A stretch of DNA of 64,000 nt from Escherichia phage DK-13. Position 1 is the first letter of the stretch. Each line of letters opens with the position of its first letter. The notes below the pieces were generated by a model. The model was not told the DNA's origin and ran no database searches. It worked only from the letters and a program-made list of their open reading frames with translations. The position numbers and the translations under genes are program-made. Location of the stretch: sequence record MT611523.1, one strand, 5' to 3'. Of this stretch, positions 14,850 through 63,889 are shown piece after piece.

Positions 14850-14947
14850 AGTATTTTCCTCAAGGGGCTTTCGCCCCATTTAAGATTAGATATCAAATTC
14901 ATTAAGAACTACATCAAAGATTGCTTCCAGGTGTTCAGTATGGAATC

Positions 14948-14977
14948 ATTATGCACTGGACAACCCCTGTTGTAAAC
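14948..14977 (-). promoter_or_regulatory. early promoter (GTTTACA, 17-nt spacer, CATAAT) directly downstream of terminator
   Basis: - strand GGGTTTACAACAGGGGTTGTCCAGTGCATAATGATTCCATACTGA; shares the 3' half CATAATGATTCCATACTGA with copies at 50092 and 53991. Confidence 0.5.
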
Positions 14978-14984
14978 CCTTTAT

Positions 14985-15016
14985 GGAAAATAAAAAAGGG
15001 ACTCCGAAGAGTCCCT
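14985..15016 (-). terminator. rho-independent terminator
   Basis: - strand GGGACTCTTCGGAGTCCC then TTTTTTATTTT, right after stop of the 15021..15182 ORF. Confidence 0.7.

Positions 15017-19529: not shown

Positions 19530-19530
<1 letters not shown>
19330..19530 (-). CDS. hypothetical protein
   Basis: 66-aa ORF abutting pseT stop. Confidence 0.45.
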
Positions 19531-20748
<1,218 letters not shown>

Positions 20749-20752
<4 letters not shown>

Positions 20753-21231
20753 ACACCAAGCTCCTTATAAAGTTCTTCGCGACAAGTTTTAAGGATTTTA
20801 CCAGTTTCATAAGCTGCGCTTTCAGAAACATCACCAAGTGTGGCGGCAGCTTGCATTTGACCATGGCGTTTAGCCGCATATTCAAAACTTTTTACCAGTT
20901 CACGAATACGTTCTTTTTCATTGTATTCTTCAATAAATTCTGGGTATTCCCAAACAGGTCGCATCATACGATACCAATGCTGAATAGTAATATAATTACT
21001 TCCATCCAGATTAATAATTTGCGAAGGCTTAATAGCGCCCGGGGCATAAAAAGTTACCTGTCTCACTACATCAATACCGTCCACAATAGCCCAAGCAAAA
21101 TTGAAAGTGGCCTTCTTTTCAATTGGTGTGCTTGCACAGGACCCTAATTTTAAGAGCTTTTGTAATACAGGAGATTTAACACCTGAAATGTATTCAGGCT
21201 TAGCCACAAAACTGTTATCACGTAATGTCAT
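20749..21231 (-). CDS. hypothetical protein with its own promoter cassette
   Basis: Start moved to ATG after GAGGAAATGATT (tracker start lies inside the promoter); about 160 aa. Confidence 0.5.
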
Positions 21232-21258
21232 AATCATTTCCTCAAATTTTATTATCCG

Positions 21259-21294
21259 TGGGAGCATTATACTCTGCTCCCATGAGTTTGTACA
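21259..21294 (-). promoter_or_regulatory. early promoter with inverted repeat spanning -10
   Basis: - strand TGTACA-aactcatGGGAGCAgag-TATAAT-gCTCCC; arms GGGAGCA/TGCTCCC. Confidence 0.5.
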
Positions 21295-21398
21295 CTATTT
21301 TCCAAAAAGACCTTGAATATGCAAAGTGGTCGCAATTCCAAAACAAAAACAGAATGCACCAAATCTAACAATATCCCAACCAAGGCTACAGGTCTCTA

Positions 21399-21689
21399 TC
21401 ATTTGCAACGTTCCTCTTTTAGTTCAGAACGATAATAACATAACATACCTTTTTGGTCATGTACATATCTTTTTACATCATTCATCCAAATCCTGAATTC
21501 TTGCGATGCCTCAAAAGGCATACCAACCCACGGCTGACCTTCAATTACCTTCACTTCCCATTGCTGCTTATAATCAGCCAATGCAGCAGGCCAATTAGGA
21601 TGAACTTGGATTGTGGGCTCCACAACGGGCTTCTGGGCGCACGAAACGAGCCCAATAGCCAAACATACTGCCATGATAGATTTCATCAT
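21399..21689 (-). CDS. o-spanin (outer-membrane lipoprotein spanin subunit)
   Basis: 96 aa, signal peptide with lipobox LVSC; ATGA overlap with upstream i-spanin. Confidence 0.65.
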   Translation of the reverse strand: MMKSIMAVCLAIGLVSCAQKPVVEPTIQVHPNWPAALADYKQQWEVKVIEGQPWVGMPFEASQEFRIWMNDVKRYVHDQKGMLCYYRSELKEERCK

Positions 21690-22039
21690 TTGGTGAGCTC
21701 CTGGAAGTCCTGGGCGAACTTATCAAAAGACTGATTAATCTGTTTTTCAACTAATTTAGGCTTCGCGGCCACAACCTTAGTACGTTTTGCATCTGCACGG
21801 AGTTTATCATTTTCCTTCTGCAGGTGTTCAACATATTCCTGACGTTGCTGGTCAAGGAGATTAATTTGATTAATCTGGTCTTTTACTGATTGTAGATTTT
21901 TCGCGTTATCTTCTGCGACTTTGGTGACTTCCGCCACCGCTGTCTTGAGATTATCCACTTTTGCTTTTAGATAGAAACCACTACCAGCAGTTACTACCAG
22001 GGCGAGCATAAGCCCTGCAGTGAGATTACTTATTTGCAT
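21686..22039 (-). CDS. i-spanin (inner-membrane spanin subunit)
   Basis: 117 aa, N-terminal TM helix then coiled-coil; immediately upstream of o-spanin. Confidence 0.65.
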   Translation of the reverse strand: MQISNLTAGLMLALVVTAGSGFYLKAKVDNLKTAVAEVTKVAEDNAKNLQSVKDQINQINLLDQQRQEYVEHLQKENDKLRADAKRTKVVAAKPKLVEKQINQSFDKFAQDFQELTK

Positions 22040-22533
22040 AACTTGATGATTACCTCAACAATATCATCCTGGGATAAACCATTCAGGAGGATGTGATTTG
22101 TGCTGTCAGATGCTGAAATGCGGAACTGATTACCAACTTCATCCGCCATATCATCCTGGGTTAACACTGGATGTTTAATTCCCAGGCGGTGTTGAAGTGT
22201 CAGGGGTTCAACCACAACATAACAAACACATCCATTGATATGTACATTAGGTTGGGTCTGGTTAATGAACACTTCTGCATCATATTTAACCAAATGGTTC
22301 TTTAAGAATTCAACCATTTCAGGAACAGATTCATGCAGTGCTTCTTTCCGCTCTTCTGATTTTTTATCGCGATATTCTTTTTGTTTCGCCTTCAACTTTT
22401 TGTTAGAGGCGAGTTTTTTCCGCAGGTCAGTCATAAGACCAATTTTCTTGGTCCCTTTATAGACATAAATTCCGTCATGACGGTCACCATATTCATTGAC
22501 AATCATTTCATTTGAAATCAGTTGCATATCCAT
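22030..22533 (-). CDS. hypothetical protein, candidate Alc (transcription-termination factor) by position and size
   Basis: Start moved to ATG after GAGGAAAATATT; 167 aa (same as T4 Alc); between spanin genes and rnlA; sequence not recognised. Confidence 0.4.
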   Translation of the reverse strand: MDMQLISNEMIVNEYGDRHDGIYVYKGTKKIGLMTDLRKKLASNKKLKAKQKEYRDKKSEERKEALHESVPEMVEFLKNHLVKYDAEVFINQTQPNVHINGCVCYVVVEPLTLQHRLGIKHPVLTQDDMADEVGNQFRISASDSTNHILLNGLSQDDIVEVIIKLCK

Positions 22534-22546
22534 AATATTTTCCTCA

Positions 22547-22780
22547 TTAGTAGCGGTTATAACCCCGGGGACCAAAAGAGTTGGCACCCAGGCGCTCATC
22601 TTTCTTTTTGGCTCTTGCTCTAAACCCAGAATCACCTGTTTGAGCTTTCAGTTCTTTTAACAATTTGGCCTTCAGGTCAGTAATGAAACCAATCCGGCGG
22701 TCTCCCTTATAGACATAGATTCCATCATTTCTGTCACCATATGCCTTTGTAACTCTGTCATTTGTAATTAAGTTTAACAT
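22547..22780 (-). CDS. hypothetical 77-aa protein, paralog of the N-terminus of the 22030..22533 protein
   Basis: YGDRNDGIYVYKGDRRIGFITDLKAKL vs YGDRHDGIYVYKGTKKIGLMTDLRKKL; own promoter. Confidence 0.5.
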   Translation of the reverse strand: MLNLITNDRVTKAYGDRNDGIYVYKGDRRIGFITDLKAKLLKELKAQTGDSGFRARAKKKDERLGANSFGPRGYNRY

Positions 22781-22811: not shown

Positions 22812-22850
22812 ATTATGTATAGAAAGAAGGGGCTTGTACACCCCTTTTTA
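22812..22850 (-). promoter_or_regulatory. compact terminator-promoter: -35 TGTACA sits in the loop of the rnlA terminator hairpin, -10 CATAAT
   Basis: - strand AAAAAGGGGTGTACAAGCCCCTTCTTTCTATACATAATGG. Confidence 0.5.
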
Positions 22851-23987
22851 TTATTCAGGAAGGATTACTTCCGCTTGGTAGTCTAACGGAATGTAAAGTT
22901 TATGATTTTTAAGGAAAACTTTATTGATTTGAGCAATCGTTTGTTCAGTTTCCTGTGGGCGTTGATAGGTGTTCATTAATACGGAGAACAATCCCGGGTA
23001 AGGTTTGCACAACTCTTGACCTTTAATCGCAAACTCGCGACGGTCTTTTCCTGCCAATTGTTTCTGAGCATCAAGCAACAATCCAAGAGTGTTGGACAGA
23101 TAATCCAGATGCGTTACAGTAAAGGCATTAACTTTTTCGCGAGCATAAGTATCGCCAGTAAACATGGCAATAACATCATCCGCCCCGCCAGCAACAACAA
23201 CTTCAAACAGTCGCTCATTATTATTAATGGAGTCTTTAGTATGATGCAGAGCACAATACCATTCTGTTTTCATCTTGAACTTCTGACCACTTGCCAACTC
23301 GTAGACGAAGCCTTCAATCTCTTTCATACCACGGACATTCTCAATGCTCGCCGGGTCATATGCTTCAACCAGGAAAGGACGGAGCGCAGCATCTTTGAAC
23401 AGTTCCTGATAAGGAATATATTCACCAGTTTCATTATGGCGAACGTTCAGTAAAATCAGGTCACGTTCCTGGTAAGGCAAAACAATGCGGTTGGTTGGTG
23501 CAACATATTCCATATTGCATGTATAACCAGCTTCAGTGATTTCAGTTACGCGAGTCCTGAATGCACTGCGATGCTCTTGTTTAAACACCTGCAAGGATTC
23601 AGCAGCTTGGGAGCTTTTGATTGACCCTTTGGATTTAAAGGCGATATTAGTCTGGTCCATATAAGTAGAAACCAAGCTACCATCAGCTTTTGCAGTAACC
23701 AGGACAACCTCATCAAGGTTAAGGTCCATGGTCATTGGATTCTCACCCAGATTAAAGAATTTTTCCATAGGACGGGCGGCAATGCGAACTGGACCATTGT
23801 CATCCATTTCAAACATAATGCCACGACACTCCAGCGCATCATCAAGGAGCCAATCACTATAGGAAGCATAGTTATAGCTAAAGATGCGGAACTTAGTTTC
23901 AAATGGAGAAACAAAATCCGTATAGAAAAACTTACCTTTATCGGATTCGGCGCAAAGCTTCATTAAGTTATCATATAATTCAATCAT
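22851..23987 (-). CDS. rnlA: RNA ligase 1
   Basis: 378 aa; FRIFSYNYASYSDWLL.DALECRGIMFEMD...RPMEKFFNL.ENP matches remembered T4 Rnl1 (gene 63). Confidence 0.9.
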   Translation of the reverse strand: MIELYDNLMKLCAESDKGKFFYTDFVSPFETKFRIFSYNYASYSDWLLDDALECRGIMFEMDDNGPVRIAARPMEKFFNLGENPMTMDLNLDEVVLVTAKADGSLVSTYMDQTNIAFKSKGSIKSSQAAESLQVFKQEHRSAFRTRVTEITEAGYTCNMEYVAPTNRIVLPYQERDLILLNVRHNETGEYIPYQELFKDAALRPFLVEAYDPASIENVRGMKEIEGFVYELASGQKFKMKTEWYCALHHTKDSINNNERLFEVVVAGGADDVIAMFTGDTYAREKVNAFTVTHLDYLSNTLGLLLDAQKQLAGKDRREFAIKGQELCKPYPGLFSVLMNTYQRPQETEQTIAQINKVFLKNHKLYIPLDYQAEVILPE

Positions 23988-31502: not shown

Positions 31503-31541
31503 TTTATTCTCCAGTTTTGTTGTGTAACTCAATATGGGACC

Positions 31542-31570
31542 ATTATGTCATAGCCCCATTTGGTTGTACA
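31542..31570 (-). promoter_or_regulatory. early promoter (TGTACA, 17 nt, CATAAT)
   Basis: - strand AAAAAGTAGTGTACAACCAAATGGGGCTATGACATAATGGTCCCATATTGAG. Confidence 0.45.
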
Positions 31571-31577
31571 CTACTTT

Positions 31578-31832
31578 TTAAATTTTATCAAGCCATTTTC
31601 CAAGTTTAGTCATTTCCTTGGTGGCTTTTTCCATACTTCTGAATTTAATTAATAAAGGATAGGTATCTACACCCATCACCAGATTGGTTGCAAGACTATG
31701 TTCACCAACAAGCCATAATGAGTATGTTTGAACATCCAGACCATAATTTCTGTCTTTATGTAAACGTACACCCATCACTTCAAATTGTTCACTGGCTTTT
31801 TCCACTGCATTCAGGAAATCATCTTTAGTCAT
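31578..31832 (-). CDS. hypothetical protein
   Basis: 84 aa from first ATG (tracker start is TTG). Confidence 0.45.
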   Translation of the reverse strand: MTKDDFLNAVEKASEQFEVMGVRLHKDRNYGLDVQTYSLWLVGEHSLATNLVMGVDTYPLLIKFRSMEKATKEMTKLGKWLDKI

Positions 31833-52481: not shown

Positions 52482-52520
52482 ATTAATTTCCTCAGTAAGT
52501 TAAAGTTTTGTGCTCCAGTG

Positions 52521-52555
52521 GGGGTCATTATACTCTGACCCCAAGAGTTTGTACA
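52521..52555 (-). promoter_or_regulatory. early promoter with inverted repeat spanning -10
   Basis: - strand TGTACA-aactcttGGGGTCAgag-TATAAT-gACCCC; arms GGGGTCA/TGACCCC. Confidence 0.5.
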
Positions 52556-52900
52556 CTATTTTTGAAGTTGTTCTAAAATAAATCCGCTGGTGTAAAGGCT
52601 TGCATTATACAGGCGGTCAAGAGACAACGAATCCAATCCATAAGCTTCGCGAATTGCATTGATAACACTCTCATAACTTGTATAATAAACATCACGATAA
52701 TCGCGGTCCATAGTCATGCGGAACTTAATAAATTTGTAGAAACCAGTTTCAGGGTCCTGATAGAATGCAAATTCTGCAGACATCAAATTTTTAAGGTTAA
52801 CAGCTTTTGTACCACCTGAATAACTTAAATCAAATGCTTCTGATATGCTAATCTGTTTAAAGAACATAATGTTGCGATTACCAAAAAATACTTTAGACAT
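52556..52900 (-). CDS. hypothetical protein
   Basis: 114-aa ORF with own promoter. Confidence 0.5.
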   Translation of the reverse strand: MSKVFFGNRNIMFFKQISISEAFDLSYSGGTKAVNLKNLMSAEFAFYQDPETGFYKFIKFRMTMDRDYRDVYYTSYESVINAIREAYGLDSLSLDRLYNASLYTSGFILEQLQK

Positions 52901-52932
52901 AATATTTTCCTCAATTAAATTTTATTATCCAC

Positions 52933-52967
52933 GGGAACATTATACTCTGCTCCCAAGAGTTTGTACA
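52933..52967 (-). promoter_or_regulatory. early promoter with inverted repeat spanning -10
   Basis: - strand TGTACA-aactcttGGGAGCAgag-TATAAT-gTTCCC; arms GGGAGCA/TGTTCCC (one G-T wobble position). Confidence 0.5.
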
Positions 52968-53213
52968 CTATTCTACATCTACTGCGCCATCCCACAAGTC
53001 AACTTCTTCTGATGATTCCATCAGTTCATCAACTGTGAAGCACTCAGTATTATTTTCAATTGCAAAACGCTTCTGATAAAAAGGATAATCCAAACAGTTT
53101 TCAGTGCGCACGGGGCGTTCACTGTTATCCATTAAAGGCGAAATGCGAATCAGTTGTTGACCATTACCCAGGACAAATTTTTCACCAACTGCAATGTCTT
53201 TAAAAAGTTTCAT
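52968..53213 (-). CDS. hypothetical protein
   Basis: 81-aa ORF. Confidence 0.5.
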   Translation of the reverse strand: MKLFKDIAVGEKFVLGNGQQLIRISPLMDNSERPVRTENCLDYPFYQKRFAIENNTECFTVDELMESSEEVDLWDGAVDVE

Positions 53214-63342: not shown

Positions 63343-63378
63343 AATTTTCTCTCTTGGTTAATAAGTTTATTCTCCAGT

Positions 63379-63413
63379 GGGGCCATTATACTCCGGCCCC
63401 AAGAGTTTGTACA
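63379..63413 (-). promoter_or_regulatory. early promoter with inverted repeat spanning -10
   Basis: - strand TGTACA-aactcttGGGGCCGgag-TATAAT-gGCCCC. Confidence 0.5.
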
Positions 63414-63418
63414 CAAAT

Positions 63419-63889
63419 TTAATTAAAAATTTCAACAGCCATGGAACGTGGTACAACAGTAAATTCACCAGCATGGACAACGTTCAGGAGTTCAACACCA
63501 TCTTCAATCCACTGGTCTGTTACCCAACCACAAATGGAACTATTAAATGGACGTTTGATTTGAACTGGTTTACACAACAAGTCAATAGGGTCACCCAGCT
63601 CGCTAACTTCTTCCAGCAGTACAGATTCACGCGGATAAAGGATAGCTTCAAGATTGTCACCTGATTCATTGACTGCAGTAAATTCAAAAATGCTTTGGTG
63701 ATTGTGGTACTTAACTGTTTTAACGGTAAATGGAGCAAATCCAAAAATACCTTTCAGTACCCGCCAACCGGCATTCAATGCATTAGTATTATCAAAATCA
63801 CCATATCCAACAAGTTGATAGGTTTTGTCAACTTTGATAGGAGTTTCTTCAACTTCTTTGAAGAGTTCAATCTCAGCTTCATAAACCAT
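63419..63889 (-). CDS. hypothetical protein, tandem paralog of 62851..63342; reading frame stays open upstream to the window end
   Basis: C-terminus ...CGWVTDQWIEDGVELLNVVHAGEFTVVPRSM; no in-frame stop between 63890 and 64000, so the true start may lie outside the window. Confidence 0.45.
   Translation of the reverse strand: MVYEAEIELFKEVEETPIKVDKTYQLVGYGDFDNTNALNAGWRVLKGIFGFAPFTVKTVKYHNHQSIFEFTAVNESGDNLEAILYPRESVLLEEVSELGDPIDLLCKPVQIKRPFNSSICGWVTDQWIEDGVELLNVVHAGEFTVVPRSMAVEIFN

What the first reader, a model, noticed from the sequence alone, without database searches (positions are those of the whole stretch)
20749..21294. Cassette-borne 160-aa gene inserted between the pseT-proximal ORF and the spanin pair
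Compared with my recollection of the T4 order (pseT, pseT.1, o-spanin, i-spanin, alc) there is one extra gene here, carrying its own promoter with inverted repeat, the hallmark of the mobile cassettes. It is therefore a candidate accessory gene.
Basis: partly seen in the sequence, partly recalled or inferred. Interest (0 to 1): 0.4.

Follow-up and report, generated by a model that had tools for sequence, protein, structure and literature searches.

The report
Conserved early gene missing from T4
The 160-codon gene is real and T4 lacks it, but it is an old, strongly conserved early gene of unknown function found at this same spot in most T4 relatives, not a recently inserted mobile cassette.

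Summary
A 160-aa ORF lies on the minus strand at 20749-21231. It sits between a 106-aa ORF next to pseT and the spanin pair, and a promoter-like TGTACA-17-TATAAT (21294-21266) precedes it, with a 7-bp inverted repeat straddling the -10. T4 and RB69 lack the gene.

The "inserted cassette" reading is not supported. Orthologues occupy the same slot, directly after the o-spanin, in 11 Tevenvirinae genera (262 phage records). dN/dS is 0.06-0.09. T4's pseT.1 sits just downstream of this gene in several genera, so T4 most likely lost the gene.

The newer part is the promoter. Other genera have a C(UUCG)G hairpin at that spot with the same leader. Only Gaprivervirus and Dhakavirus carry a -35 and a TATAAT inside the loop, as part of a module repeated in this genome.

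The protein belongs to PHROG 4482 (function unknown). Its predicted structure is a basic N-terminal domain with no significant solved-structure match, plus an acidic C-terminal helical hairpin. No Pfam, PDB or bacterial relatives were found. Against JS98 the gene is mosaic, with the breakpoint at the domain boundary.

Function remains unknown. My guess is a non-enzymatic early protein that binds a host macromolecule. Interest is low to moderate.

The parts
20749..21231 (-). orf160: 160-aa early gene, PHROG 4482, orthologue of VR7ORF239c. Residues 1-96 form a basic alpha/beta N-domain; residues 97-160 form an acidic antiparallel helical hairpin.
   Evidence: ORF and start codon. Orthologues. 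dN/dS 0.06-0.09. AF2 pLDDT 90. Domain pI 9.4 and 5.1, no TM segment.
21239..21243 (-). Shine-Dalgarno GAGGA, 7 nt before the ATG at 21231
   Evidence: Sequence. Conserved as GAGGA(A/T) in all relatives examined.
21260..21294 (-). Early-promoter-like element: -35 TGTACA (21294-21289), 17-nt spacer, -10 TATAAT (21271-21266). The inverted repeat GGGAGCA (21281-21275) / TGCTCCC (21266-21260) places the -10 in the loop.
   Evidence: Nearly invariant in Gaprivervirus and Dhakavirus loci.
21244..21304 (-). 61-nt repeated regulatory module (promoter, inverted repeat and leader CGGATAATAAAATTT). Other copies lie at 52917-52977 (90% identical), 52505-52565 and 63363-63423.
   Evidence: Repeat family D3 and the wider 10-copy family D1. 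The stems differ between copies while keeping complementarity.
21295..21402 (-). 35-aa hydrophobic micro-ORF (MIETCSLGWDIVRFGAFCFCFGIATTLHIQGLFGK). Its ATG overlaps the o-spanin stop (ATGA) and its stop abuts the -35. It fills most of the apparent intergenic gap.
   Evidence: Conserved in frame, length and ends in 9 Gaprivervirus/Dhakavirus loci. PHROG 23289, E = 1e-15. KD19 maximum 1.65.
20432..20752 (-). orf106 (PHROG 2364). It overlaps orf160 by 4 nt at its start and pseT by 4 nt at its end. Not homologous to T4 pseT.1.
   Evidence: 93% aa identity to JS98, 76% to VR7, 58% to RB69 ORF231c region.
19530..20435 (-). pseT (polynucleotide kinase/phosphatase), the downstream gene of the same apparent transcription unit
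21399..21689 (-). o-spanin (pseT.2 homologue), the upstream neighbour
   Evidence: PHROG 812, E = 1e-40
21686..22039 (-). i-spanin (pseT.3 homologue)
   Evidence: PHROG 739, E = 6e-37

Best explanation
orf160 is an old, vertically inherited early gene of the Tevenvirinae. It sits in a fixed slot directly downstream of the o-spanin gene and upstream of a small variable set of ORFs that ends at pseT. The T4 (Tequatrovirus) and RB69 (Mosigvirus) lineages lack it and keep only pseT.1 and other small ORFs, so it looks extra only when T4 is the reference.

Shown: in most genera the gene is preceded by a C(UUCG)G hairpin and a conserved leader, with no evident promoter. In Gaprivervirus and Dhakavirus the same position holds a -35 and a TATAAT inside the loop of the hairpin, as part of a module repeated in the genome.

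Inferred: in the other genera the gene is read through from the alc/spanin transcript. In Gaprivervirus and Dhakavirus the module gives orf160, orf106 and pseT their own early start. The gene was not brought in by the promoter; the promoter came to the gene.

Shown: the protein is soluble and has two predicted domains. The first is a basic alpha/beta N-domain whose weak fold matches are mostly SH3-like barrels and which carries the family signature IK..LRKL..GS..TPLEKK. The second is an acidic antiparallel helical hairpin. Against JS98 the gene is mosaic, with the breakpoint at the domain boundary.

Inferred: the protein most likely acts without catalysis, by binding a host macromolecule (or possibly a phage one) soon after infection as part of host takeover or counter-defence. 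The hairpin would serve as an oligomerisation or partner-binding module. The molecular target is unknown.
For: Position and age:
- The order rnlA-alc-pseT.3-pseT.2-(micro-ORF)-orf160-(0-4 small ORFs)-pseT holds in Gaprivervirus, Dhakavirus, Jiaodavirus, Moonvirus, Tegunavirus, Kanagawavirus, Winklervirus, Marfavirus, Gelderlandvirus, Karamvirus and Kagamiyamavirus.
- 262 phage records carry a homologue. All extra viral-contig loci are phage genomes of about 155-178 kb.
- T4 and RB69 have no match in this region, and 498 records have the uninterrupted T4 junction.
- pseT.1 homologues lie immediately after orf160 in CHI14, JD18, MY02 and Pet-CM3-4, and further downstream in EcS1.

Selection: dN/dS is 0.06-0.09.

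Regulation:
- Hairpin plus the leader CGGATAATAAAATTTGAGGA, with no evident -35/-10 by eye, in seven genera. Five different stems keep complementarity.
- Gaprivervirus and Dhakavirus instead have GT(G/T)TACA-N17-TATAAT with the stem GGGAGCA/TGCTCC(C/T).
- The module is repeated in the window.
- T4 early promoters are strong UP/-35/TGn/-10 sigma-70 promoters (PMC2988021).

Protein:
- AF2 mean pLDDT 90, with helices 97-131 and 137-158.
- N-domain pI 9.4, hairpin pI 5.1, no TM segment.
- No Pfam, NCBIfam or PADLOC hit above noise. No PDB sequence hit.
- Only 23 representative clusters match among 1.84 billion proteins. No relative was found in bacterial genomes.

Mosaic: against JS98, codons 1-108 are 35% identical (pN 0.50, pS 0.69). 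Codons 109-160 are 92% identical (pN 0.033, pS 0.48), the same as neighbouring orf106.

Paralogues and stand-alone hairpin ORFs exist: phiR1-RT g223, EcS1 ORF241, P0044 and P0047.
Against: - No experiment or homology ties the protein to any target. "Binding, not catalysis" rests only on small size, the absence of any recognisable catalytic fold and the helical hairpin.
- Conserved polar residues (K19, E38, K40, H123, R151, Y155) could equally serve a small enzyme or a nucleic-acid binder.
- Loss in the T4/RB69 lineage is inferred from distribution, not from a reconciled phylogeny. Several independent gains are not formally excluded.
- Promoter activity is inferred from consensus and repetition only. 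No transcript data were available.
- Absence of a promoter in the other genera was judged by eye, not by scan or experiment.
Confidence: 0.6

Rival explanations
1. One reading: a recently acquired mobile promoter-stem-loop (PeSL-type) cassette carrying a strain-variable accessory or anti-defence gene, inserted into the T4 gene order.
For: The gene is absent from T4 and RB69. A repeated promoter and inverted-repeat module lies directly upstream, with a 90% identical 61-nt copy at 52917-52977. PeSLs are described as recombination sites flanking ORFans (PMC2839356, PMC4122927). The region between the o-spanin and pseT does vary in gene content between genera.
Against: The gene is present at this position in every Gaprivervirus record found and in ten other genera, with dN/dS 0.06-0.09. 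No module lies on its downstream side, where it overlaps orf106. Orthologues in other genera lack the promoter. The next copy of the promoter family in the direction of transcription is at 14940-14985.
Confidence: 0.08
2. A Gre/DksA-like factor. The C-terminal coiled-coil hairpin with an acidic tip (G133-D-V-S-E137-S-A-A-Y141, compare E. coli GreA G40-D-L-K-E44-N-A-E-Y48) would enter the RNA polymerase secondary channel and modulate host or phage transcription.
For: The predicted hairpin of 35 + 22 residues has this motif at its tip. Weak hits point to GreA models: NCBIfam GreA E = 0.09 on residues 121-145, and Pfam GreA_GreB_N E = 0.011 for 1 of 26 members. The gene lies near alc, another transcription modulator. 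The GreA sequence was read from E. coli K-12.
Against: hhalign of the family profile against GreA gives probability 0.8% and BLASTP gives E = 0.17. No Gre or DksA structure appears in PDB profile searches. The tip motif is present in only 6 of 26 diverse family members. The domain order is reversed, and the globular domain does not match the Gre C-terminal domain.
Confidence: 0.05
3. A lysis-related accessory protein that works with the adjacent spanins and the membrane micro-ORF.
Confidence: 0.05
4. An RNA-binding accessory of the PseT/Rnl1 tRNA-repair pathway, or another nucleic-acid-binding early regulator, acting through the basic N-domain.
Confidence: 0.12

Closest known systems
PHROG 4482 / VR7ORF239c (YP_004063920) and its unnamed orthologues in Gaprivervirus, Dhakavirus, Karamvirus, Jiaodavirus and others
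   Same: Full-length profile match with E = 2e-72. It is 96% identical to the VR7 protein, with the same position and length.
   Different: Nothing material. This is the same uncharacterised family. 172-aa ORF calls in the protein collection (P0001, P0003-P0005, including Yersinia phage vB_YenM_P8) start 12 codons too early.
PeSL regulatory cassettes of T4-type phages (Arbiol et al. 2010, PMC2839356; Comeau et al. 2014, PMC4122927)
   Same: A repeated composite of a sigma-70-type early promoter and a G/C-rich stem-loop, lying in a variable region of non-essential early genes. The copies are similar enough (90% over 61 nt) to serve as recombination substrates.
   Different: The stem straddles the -10 instead of forming a separate terminator next to the promoter. 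Only one side of the gene carries a module. The gene is not an ORFan and does not vary between close relatives.
C(UUCG)G intercistronic hairpins of T4 (Tuerk et al. 1988; recalled from my own knowledge, not checked here)
   Same: In seven genera a GC stem with a UUCG loop sits at exactly this position, before the same leader and ribosome-binding site. The stems differ but stay complementary.
   Different: In the window the loop is 8 nt and contains TATAAT, and a -35 lies 17 nt upstream, so the element doubles as a promoter.
T4 pseT.1 (PHROG 2347)
   Same: It occupies the same interval between pseT.2 and pseT. It is a small helical protein. A profile-profile alignment of its first helix to the first helix of the orf160 hairpin gives P = 3e-4 and probability 39%.
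   Different: No BLASTP similarity. hhalign with the shallow profile finds nothing. Both genes co-exist, adjacent in four genera and further apart in EcS1, so they are not alleles of one gene.
Gre-factor N-terminal coiled coil
   Same: A long antiparallel helical hairpin with a G-D-x-x-E-x-A-x-Y motif at the tip.
   Different: The similarity is not significant. The motif is not conserved across the family. The domain order and the globular domain both differ.

Membership tests
PHROG 4482 (uncharacterised T4-like phage protein family) | Full-length match to the family profile | tested here: met
   E = 2.1e-72. Residues 13-172 of the long ORF align to profile positions 1-162 of 162.
PHROG 4482 (uncharacterised T4-like phage protein family) | Same genomic position as other members (after the o-spanin, before pseT) | tested here: met
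   Eleven genera.
PeSL mobile regulatory cassette | Sigma-70-type early promoter consensus | tested here: met
   TGTACA-17-TATAAT scores 10 of 12, with an A/T-rich upstream region, and belongs to a 10-copy family. Activity was not tested.
PeSL mobile regulatory cassette | Adjacent stable G/C stem-loop acting as a terminator or attenuator | tested here: inconclusive
   A 7-bp stem is present but it straddles the -10 and has no T-run. The fold of the whole gap is not better than shuffles, z = -0.39. Terminator function is not testable here.
PeSL mobile regulatory cassette | Modules flank the ORF on both sides, so that recombination can excise or insert it | tested here: not met
   No module lies downstream. 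orf160 overlaps orf106, which overlaps pseT. The next family copy in the direction of transcription is at 14940-14985.
PeSL mobile regulatory cassette | The cargo is an ORFan present or absent between close relatives | tested here: not met
   52 records are 90-99% identical and the gene is present in 262 records overall. dN/dS is 0.06-0.09.
T4 pseT.1 family (PHROG 2347) | Detectable sequence homology to pseT.1 | tested here: inconclusive
   BLASTP finds nothing. hhalign of A1 against T4 pseT.1 gives probability 0.15%. Hairpin profile against pseT.1 profile gives P = 3e-4, probability 39%, over 33 columns.
Gre/DksA-type secondary-channel factors | Significant match to GreA_GreB_N or DksA models | tested here: not met
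   NCBIfam GreA scores 12.6 bits against a cutoff of 145. No Pfam hit for the window protein. hhalign probability is 0.8%.
Gre/DksA-type secondary-channel factors | Conserved acidic residues at the coiled-coil tip across the family | tested here: not met
   The GD.xE..xY motif occurs in 17 of 22 close relatives but only 6 of 26 diverse members.
Gre/DksA-type secondary-channel factors | Binding to RNA polymerase | not testable with these tools
   Needs a pull-down, a two-hybrid assay or a complex prediction.
Spanin / lysis proteins | Signal sequence, lipobox or TM segment | tested here: not met
   The maximum 19-residue Kyte-Doolittle mean is 0.97, and there is no lipobox.
Known anti-defence or defence proteins | Match to a catalogued defence-related family | tested here: not met
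   The only PADLOC hit is SduA at E = 0.024 and 12 bits, which is noise. PADLOC holds defence systems, not anti-defence proteins, so this test is partial.

The most novel reading that the evidence does not exclude
The family is a phage-encoded transcription factor of a new architecture. The globular domain comes first and a coiled-coil hairpin with an acidic tip comes last. In the Gaprivervirus, Dhakavirus and Kanagawavirus/Karamvirus-type members the tip carries a Gre-like G-D-x-x-E-x-A-x-Y motif and would reach the RNA polymerase active site through the secondary channel. Because T4 lacks the gene, it was never met in classical T4 genetics. A less specific version, a new host-takeover or counter-defence effector family conserved in most non-T4 Tevenvirinae, is more probable (about 0.3) but less novel.
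Probability: 0.05. Interest if true: 0.75.

Novelty: new member of a known kind. Interest (0 to 1): 0.25.

Why it matters
This matters mainly as a correction. Using T4 as the reference makes an ancient, widely conserved gene look like an insertion. The gene is one of the steadiest uncharacterised early genes of the pseT-alc region in the Tevenvirinae genera often isolated for phage therapy (Gaprivervirus, Dhakavirus, Karamvirus, Jiaodavirus and others). Its absence from T4 explains why nothing is known about it. Three features make it a reasonable but not urgent target for a deletion and pull-down study: a basic domain with no solved-structure match, a hairpin that also occurs as separate ORFs, and a recombination breakpoint at the domain boundary. 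The change of an intercistronic UUCG hairpin into a promoter-in-hairpin module shows how these phages can add an early start in front of an existing gene.

Tried and rejected
- Sequence homology gave no function. Pfam, NCBIfam, PADLOC and PDB searches with the single sequence and with two profiles found nothing above noise.
- An exhaustive HMM search of 1.84 billion representatives found only 23 clusters, all of the same size class.
- A pattern scan of 185,579 bacterial and archaeal genomes found no relative.
- BFVD returned only uncharacterised T4-like phage proteins.
- The AlphaFold database library was not available.
- I tested whether T4 pseT.1 is a diverged copy. BLASTP and shallow hhalign were negative. 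A deeper profile-profile run was suggestive for one helix only, so I left it as inconclusive.
- I tested Gre-factor similarity and rejected it as unsupported.
- I considered the 172-aa reading frame and rejected it.
- I considered the whole 167-nt gap as a structured RNA or terminator. It folds no better than shuffles, z = -0.39, and most of it is a coding micro-ORF.
- Literature searches for the gene, its accession and its PHROG found nothing.
- The search for related loci with the diverse alignment failed for lack of a conserved stretch.

Full report
What is there.

All genes in this part of the window are on the minus strand. In the direction of transcription the order is:
- rnlA (22851-23987)
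- a 77-aa ORF resembling the N-terminus of Alc (22547-22780)
- alc (22030-22533)
- i-spanin (21686-22039)
- o-spanin (21399-21689)
- a 35-aa hydrophobic micro-ORF (21295-21402)
- a promoter-like site (21294-21266)
- the 160-aa ORF of the finding (20749-21231)
- a 106-aa ORF (20432-20752)
- pseT (19530-20435)

The window comes from a Gaprivervirus-type T4 relative. The region is 96% identical to phages EAWsc9, TH22 and UPEC07, and 87% identical to VR7.

The gene is real.

- It matches PHROG 4482 over the whole profile, E = 2e-72. The alignment begins at residue 13 of the longer 172-aa ORF.
- Most homologues are 160 aa and begin MTLR.
- The upstream ATG at 21267 lies inside the -10 hexamer and is out of frame in three close relatives. 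The gene therefore starts at 21231, behind GAGGA.
- Against seven Gaprivervirus orthologues there are 17-36 synonymous and 6-15 non-synonymous differences, giving dN/dS of 0.06-0.09.

The promoter and inverted repeat are real features of the sequence.

- The element is TGTACA, 17 nt, TATAAT, with GGGAGCA and TGCTCCC on either side of the -10, so that TATAAT lies in the loop.
- A generic promoter scan of 8 kb is at chance level (23 found, 21.4 expected).
- This 35-nt sequence, however, recurs at 52933-52967 with two mismatches where none is expected.
- It belongs to a family of ten early-promoter-like sequences in the window. Four of these share a 61-nt module that includes the leader, and the copy at 52917-52977 is 90% identical.
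- In those four copies the stems differ (AGCA/TGCT, GTCA/TGAC, GCC/GGC) but stay complementary.
- T4 early promoters are known to be strong UP/-35/TGn/-10 sigma-70 promoters (PMC2988021).

Comparison with T4.

- T4 has pseT, pseT.1 (75 aa), pseT.2, pseT.3 and alc, with overlapping or abutting reading frames.
- Neither the 160-aa nor the 106-aa protein resembles T4 pseT.1 by BLASTP.
- Local tblastn finds no trace of orf160 in the T4 or RB69 regions.
- 498 phage records have the uninterrupted T4 junction.

Distribution.

- tblastn finds the protein in 262 phage records from Klebsiella, Escherichia, Enterobacter, Serratia, Salmonella, Citrobacter, Yersinia and other hosts.
- I checked the annotation around eleven of them. 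In Gaprivervirus VR7, Dhakavirus JS98, Jiaodavirus JD18, Moonvirus Moon, Tegunavirus phiR1-RT, Kanagawavirus Q7622, Winklervirus CHI14, Marfavirus MY02, Gelderlandvirus STML-198, Karamvirus Pet-CM3-4 and Kagamiyamavirus EcS1, the homologue lies directly after the o-spanin gene. Between zero and four small, variable ORFs separate it from pseT.
- In CHI14, JD18, MY02 and Pet-CM3-4 the ORF right after it is a homologue of T4 pseT.1. EcS1 has both genes as well.

The simplest history is an ancestral order of o-spanin, orf160, pseT.1 and others, then pseT. T4 and RB69 lost orf160 from this order, and the Gaprivervirus/Dhakavirus lineage lacks pseT.1. The variable part of the interval is what lies between orf160 and pseT, not orf160 itself.

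The upstream region.

Most of the 167-nt gap is not intergenic. A 35-aa ORF starts with an ATG overlapping the o-spanin stop and ends one base before the -35.
- It is kept in frame, length and termini in nine Gaprivervirus/Dhakavirus loci despite many substitutions and one in-frame codon loss.
- It matches PHROG 23289 and is hydrophobic enough for a membrane helix.
- Other genera have unrelated tiny hydrophobic ORFs of 22-33 aa at the same place.

Between that ORF and orf160, seven genera carry a GC stem with a UUCG loop, followed by the leader CGGATAATAAAATTTGAGGA and the start codon.
- The stems are GGGC/GCCC, GAGGGC/GCCCTC, AGAGCC/GGCTCT, GAGGCC/GGCCTC and GTGAGGC/GCCTCAC, so they change while staying complementary.
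- I saw no credible -35/-10 pair in those sequences.
- Gaprivervirus and Dhakavirus have the same leader, but the stem is GGGAGCA/TGCTCC(C/T), the loop holds TATAAT, and GT(G/T)TACA lies 17 nt upstream.

The hairpin position is therefore old, and the promoter is a later addition in one lineage, in the form of a module found elsewhere in the genome. This is the opposite of a gene arriving with its promoter. No second module lies on the downstream side, because orf160, orf106 and pseT overlap by 4 nt each. The features that define a PeSL cassette (PMC2839356, PMC4122927) are only partly met.

The protein.

- AlphaFold2 with a 22-sequence alignment gives mean pLDDT 90. It predicts a short strand, two helices (12-17, 21-29), a conserved loop, a long beta-hairpin (42-62), two more strands and a helix, then two long antiparallel helices (97-131, 137-158).
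- BFVD returns only uncharacterised proteins of T4-like phages.
- The N-domain is basic (pI 9.4) and the hairpin is acidic (pI 5.1). There is no membrane segment.
- Across 26 diverse members the most conserved positions are V9, K19, L23, G30, L37, K40, V59, P64, A119, G124 and G144.
- The family is small and confined to these phages. Only 23 representative clusters match among 1.84 billion proteins. No relative was found in bacterial genomes by pattern scan. All further viral contigs are phage genomes of about 155-178 kb.

Mosaic structure.

- Against JS98, DNA identity is about 80-85% through the end of the o-spanin, the micro-ORF and the promoter.
- It drops to 40-50% over the first 108 codons of orf160.
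- It returns to about 90% from 20905 onward, through the hairpin, orf106 and pseT.
- In codon terms, residues 1-108 are 35% identical (pN 0.50, pS 0.69). Residues 109-160 are 92% identical (pN 0.033, pS 0.48), the same values as orf106.

The breakpoint coincides with the domain boundary. I read this as replacement of the N-domain segment by a distant allele, using the conserved promoter/leader and the hairpin-coding sequence as flanks. Over the whole family the N-domain is not less conserved than the hairpin, so I do not claim diversifying selection.

The hairpin also occurs as a separate ORF: EcS1 ORF241, which matches the C-terminal third of PHROG 4482, and P0044 and P0047. phiR1-RT has a second full-length paralogue, g223. 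A profile of the hairpin aligns to the first helix of the pseT.1 family with P = 3e-4 and probability 39%. This is suggestive but unproven.

Function.

Nothing found here fixes it. I commit to the following as most likely, and it is inference. The protein is a soluble early protein that acts by binding rather than catalysis, on a host macromolecule or possibly a phage one. The hairpin would be an oligomerisation or partner-binding module. It would belong to the large set of non-essential early genes thought to tune the phage to its hosts (PMC2988021). I put the anatomy and history at about 0.9 and the mode of action at about 0.3.

One specific lead failed its test. The hairpin tip reads GDVSESAAY, close to GDLKENAEY at the tip of the GreA coiled coil (GreA read from E. 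coli K-12), and two model libraries give weak GreA hits.
- The profile comparison is not significant (probability 0.8%; BLASTP E = 0.17).
- No Gre structure is found with profiles.
- The motif is present in only 6 of 26 diverse members.

I keep this only as the most novel reading not excluded.

Verdict.

The gene is an already catalogued, uncharacterised family member. Interest is low to moderate.

Noticed in passing
window 21295-21402 (minus); also L003 2315-2422, L008 1856-1954, L005 2389-2457, L006 2397-2474: A 35-aa hydrophobic micro-ORF is translationally coupled to the o-spanin stop (ATGA). It is conserved in Gaprivervirus and Dhakavirus and matches PHROG 23289. Other genera carry unrelated 22-33-aa hydrophobic ORFs at the same site, and EcS1 has two in tandem. 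This may be a small membrane protein linked to lysis or exclusion.
   Followed up: partly
window 21260-21281, 31534-31579, 52519-52564, 52931-52976, 63377-63422 (minus strand): At least five of the ten early-promoter-like sequences in the window have an inverted repeat that places the -10 hexamer in a hairpin loop. The stems differ between copies but stay complementary. The role of this promoter-in-hairpin design is unknown (transcript 5' processing, read-through control or recombination).
   Followed up: partly
window 22547-22780 (minus) and repeat 22454-22518 / 22704-22768: A 77-aa ORF (PHROG 17715) duplicates the N-terminal third of Alc and sits just upstream of the full alc gene, with 75% DNA identity over 65 nt. 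It is also annotated in VR7 (VR7ORF243c) but absent from T4 and JS98.
   Followed up: no
window 22812-22849 (minus): A composite terminator and promoter lies between rnlA and the Alc-N-like ORF. The stem AAGGGG/CCCCTT encloses the -35 TGTACA and is followed by CATAAT. This is closer to the published PeSL layout than the element in front of orf160.
   Followed up: no
window 20607-20725 (orf106): orf106 is 93% identical in protein to JS98 (Dhakavirus) but only 76% identical to VR7 (Gaprivervirus). A 120-nt stretch is 55-58% identical to VR7 and 90% identical to JS98. This is a second small mosaic patch, next to the one in orf160.
   Followed up: partly
window 19710-19946 (3' part of pseT); L001 2489-3214: DNA identity to both VR7 and JS98 falls to 42-68% in the last third of pseT. 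VR7 carries a MobE-like homing endonuclease gene immediately after pseT that the window lacks. The divergent tract may be a trace of homing-associated exchange.
   Followed up: no
L006 3195-3701 (phiR1-RT g223); L013 2483-2662 (EcS1 ORF241): phiR1-RT has a second full-length paralogue of orf160 three genes downstream. EcS1 has an extra ORF encoding only the hairpin, right after its full-length copy.
   Followed up: partly
L007 5320-5616 (RB69): tblastn aligns all 106 residues of orf106 to RB69, but the annotated RB69ORF231c covers only 78 codons. The RB69 gene may be annotated too short at its start.
   Followed up: no
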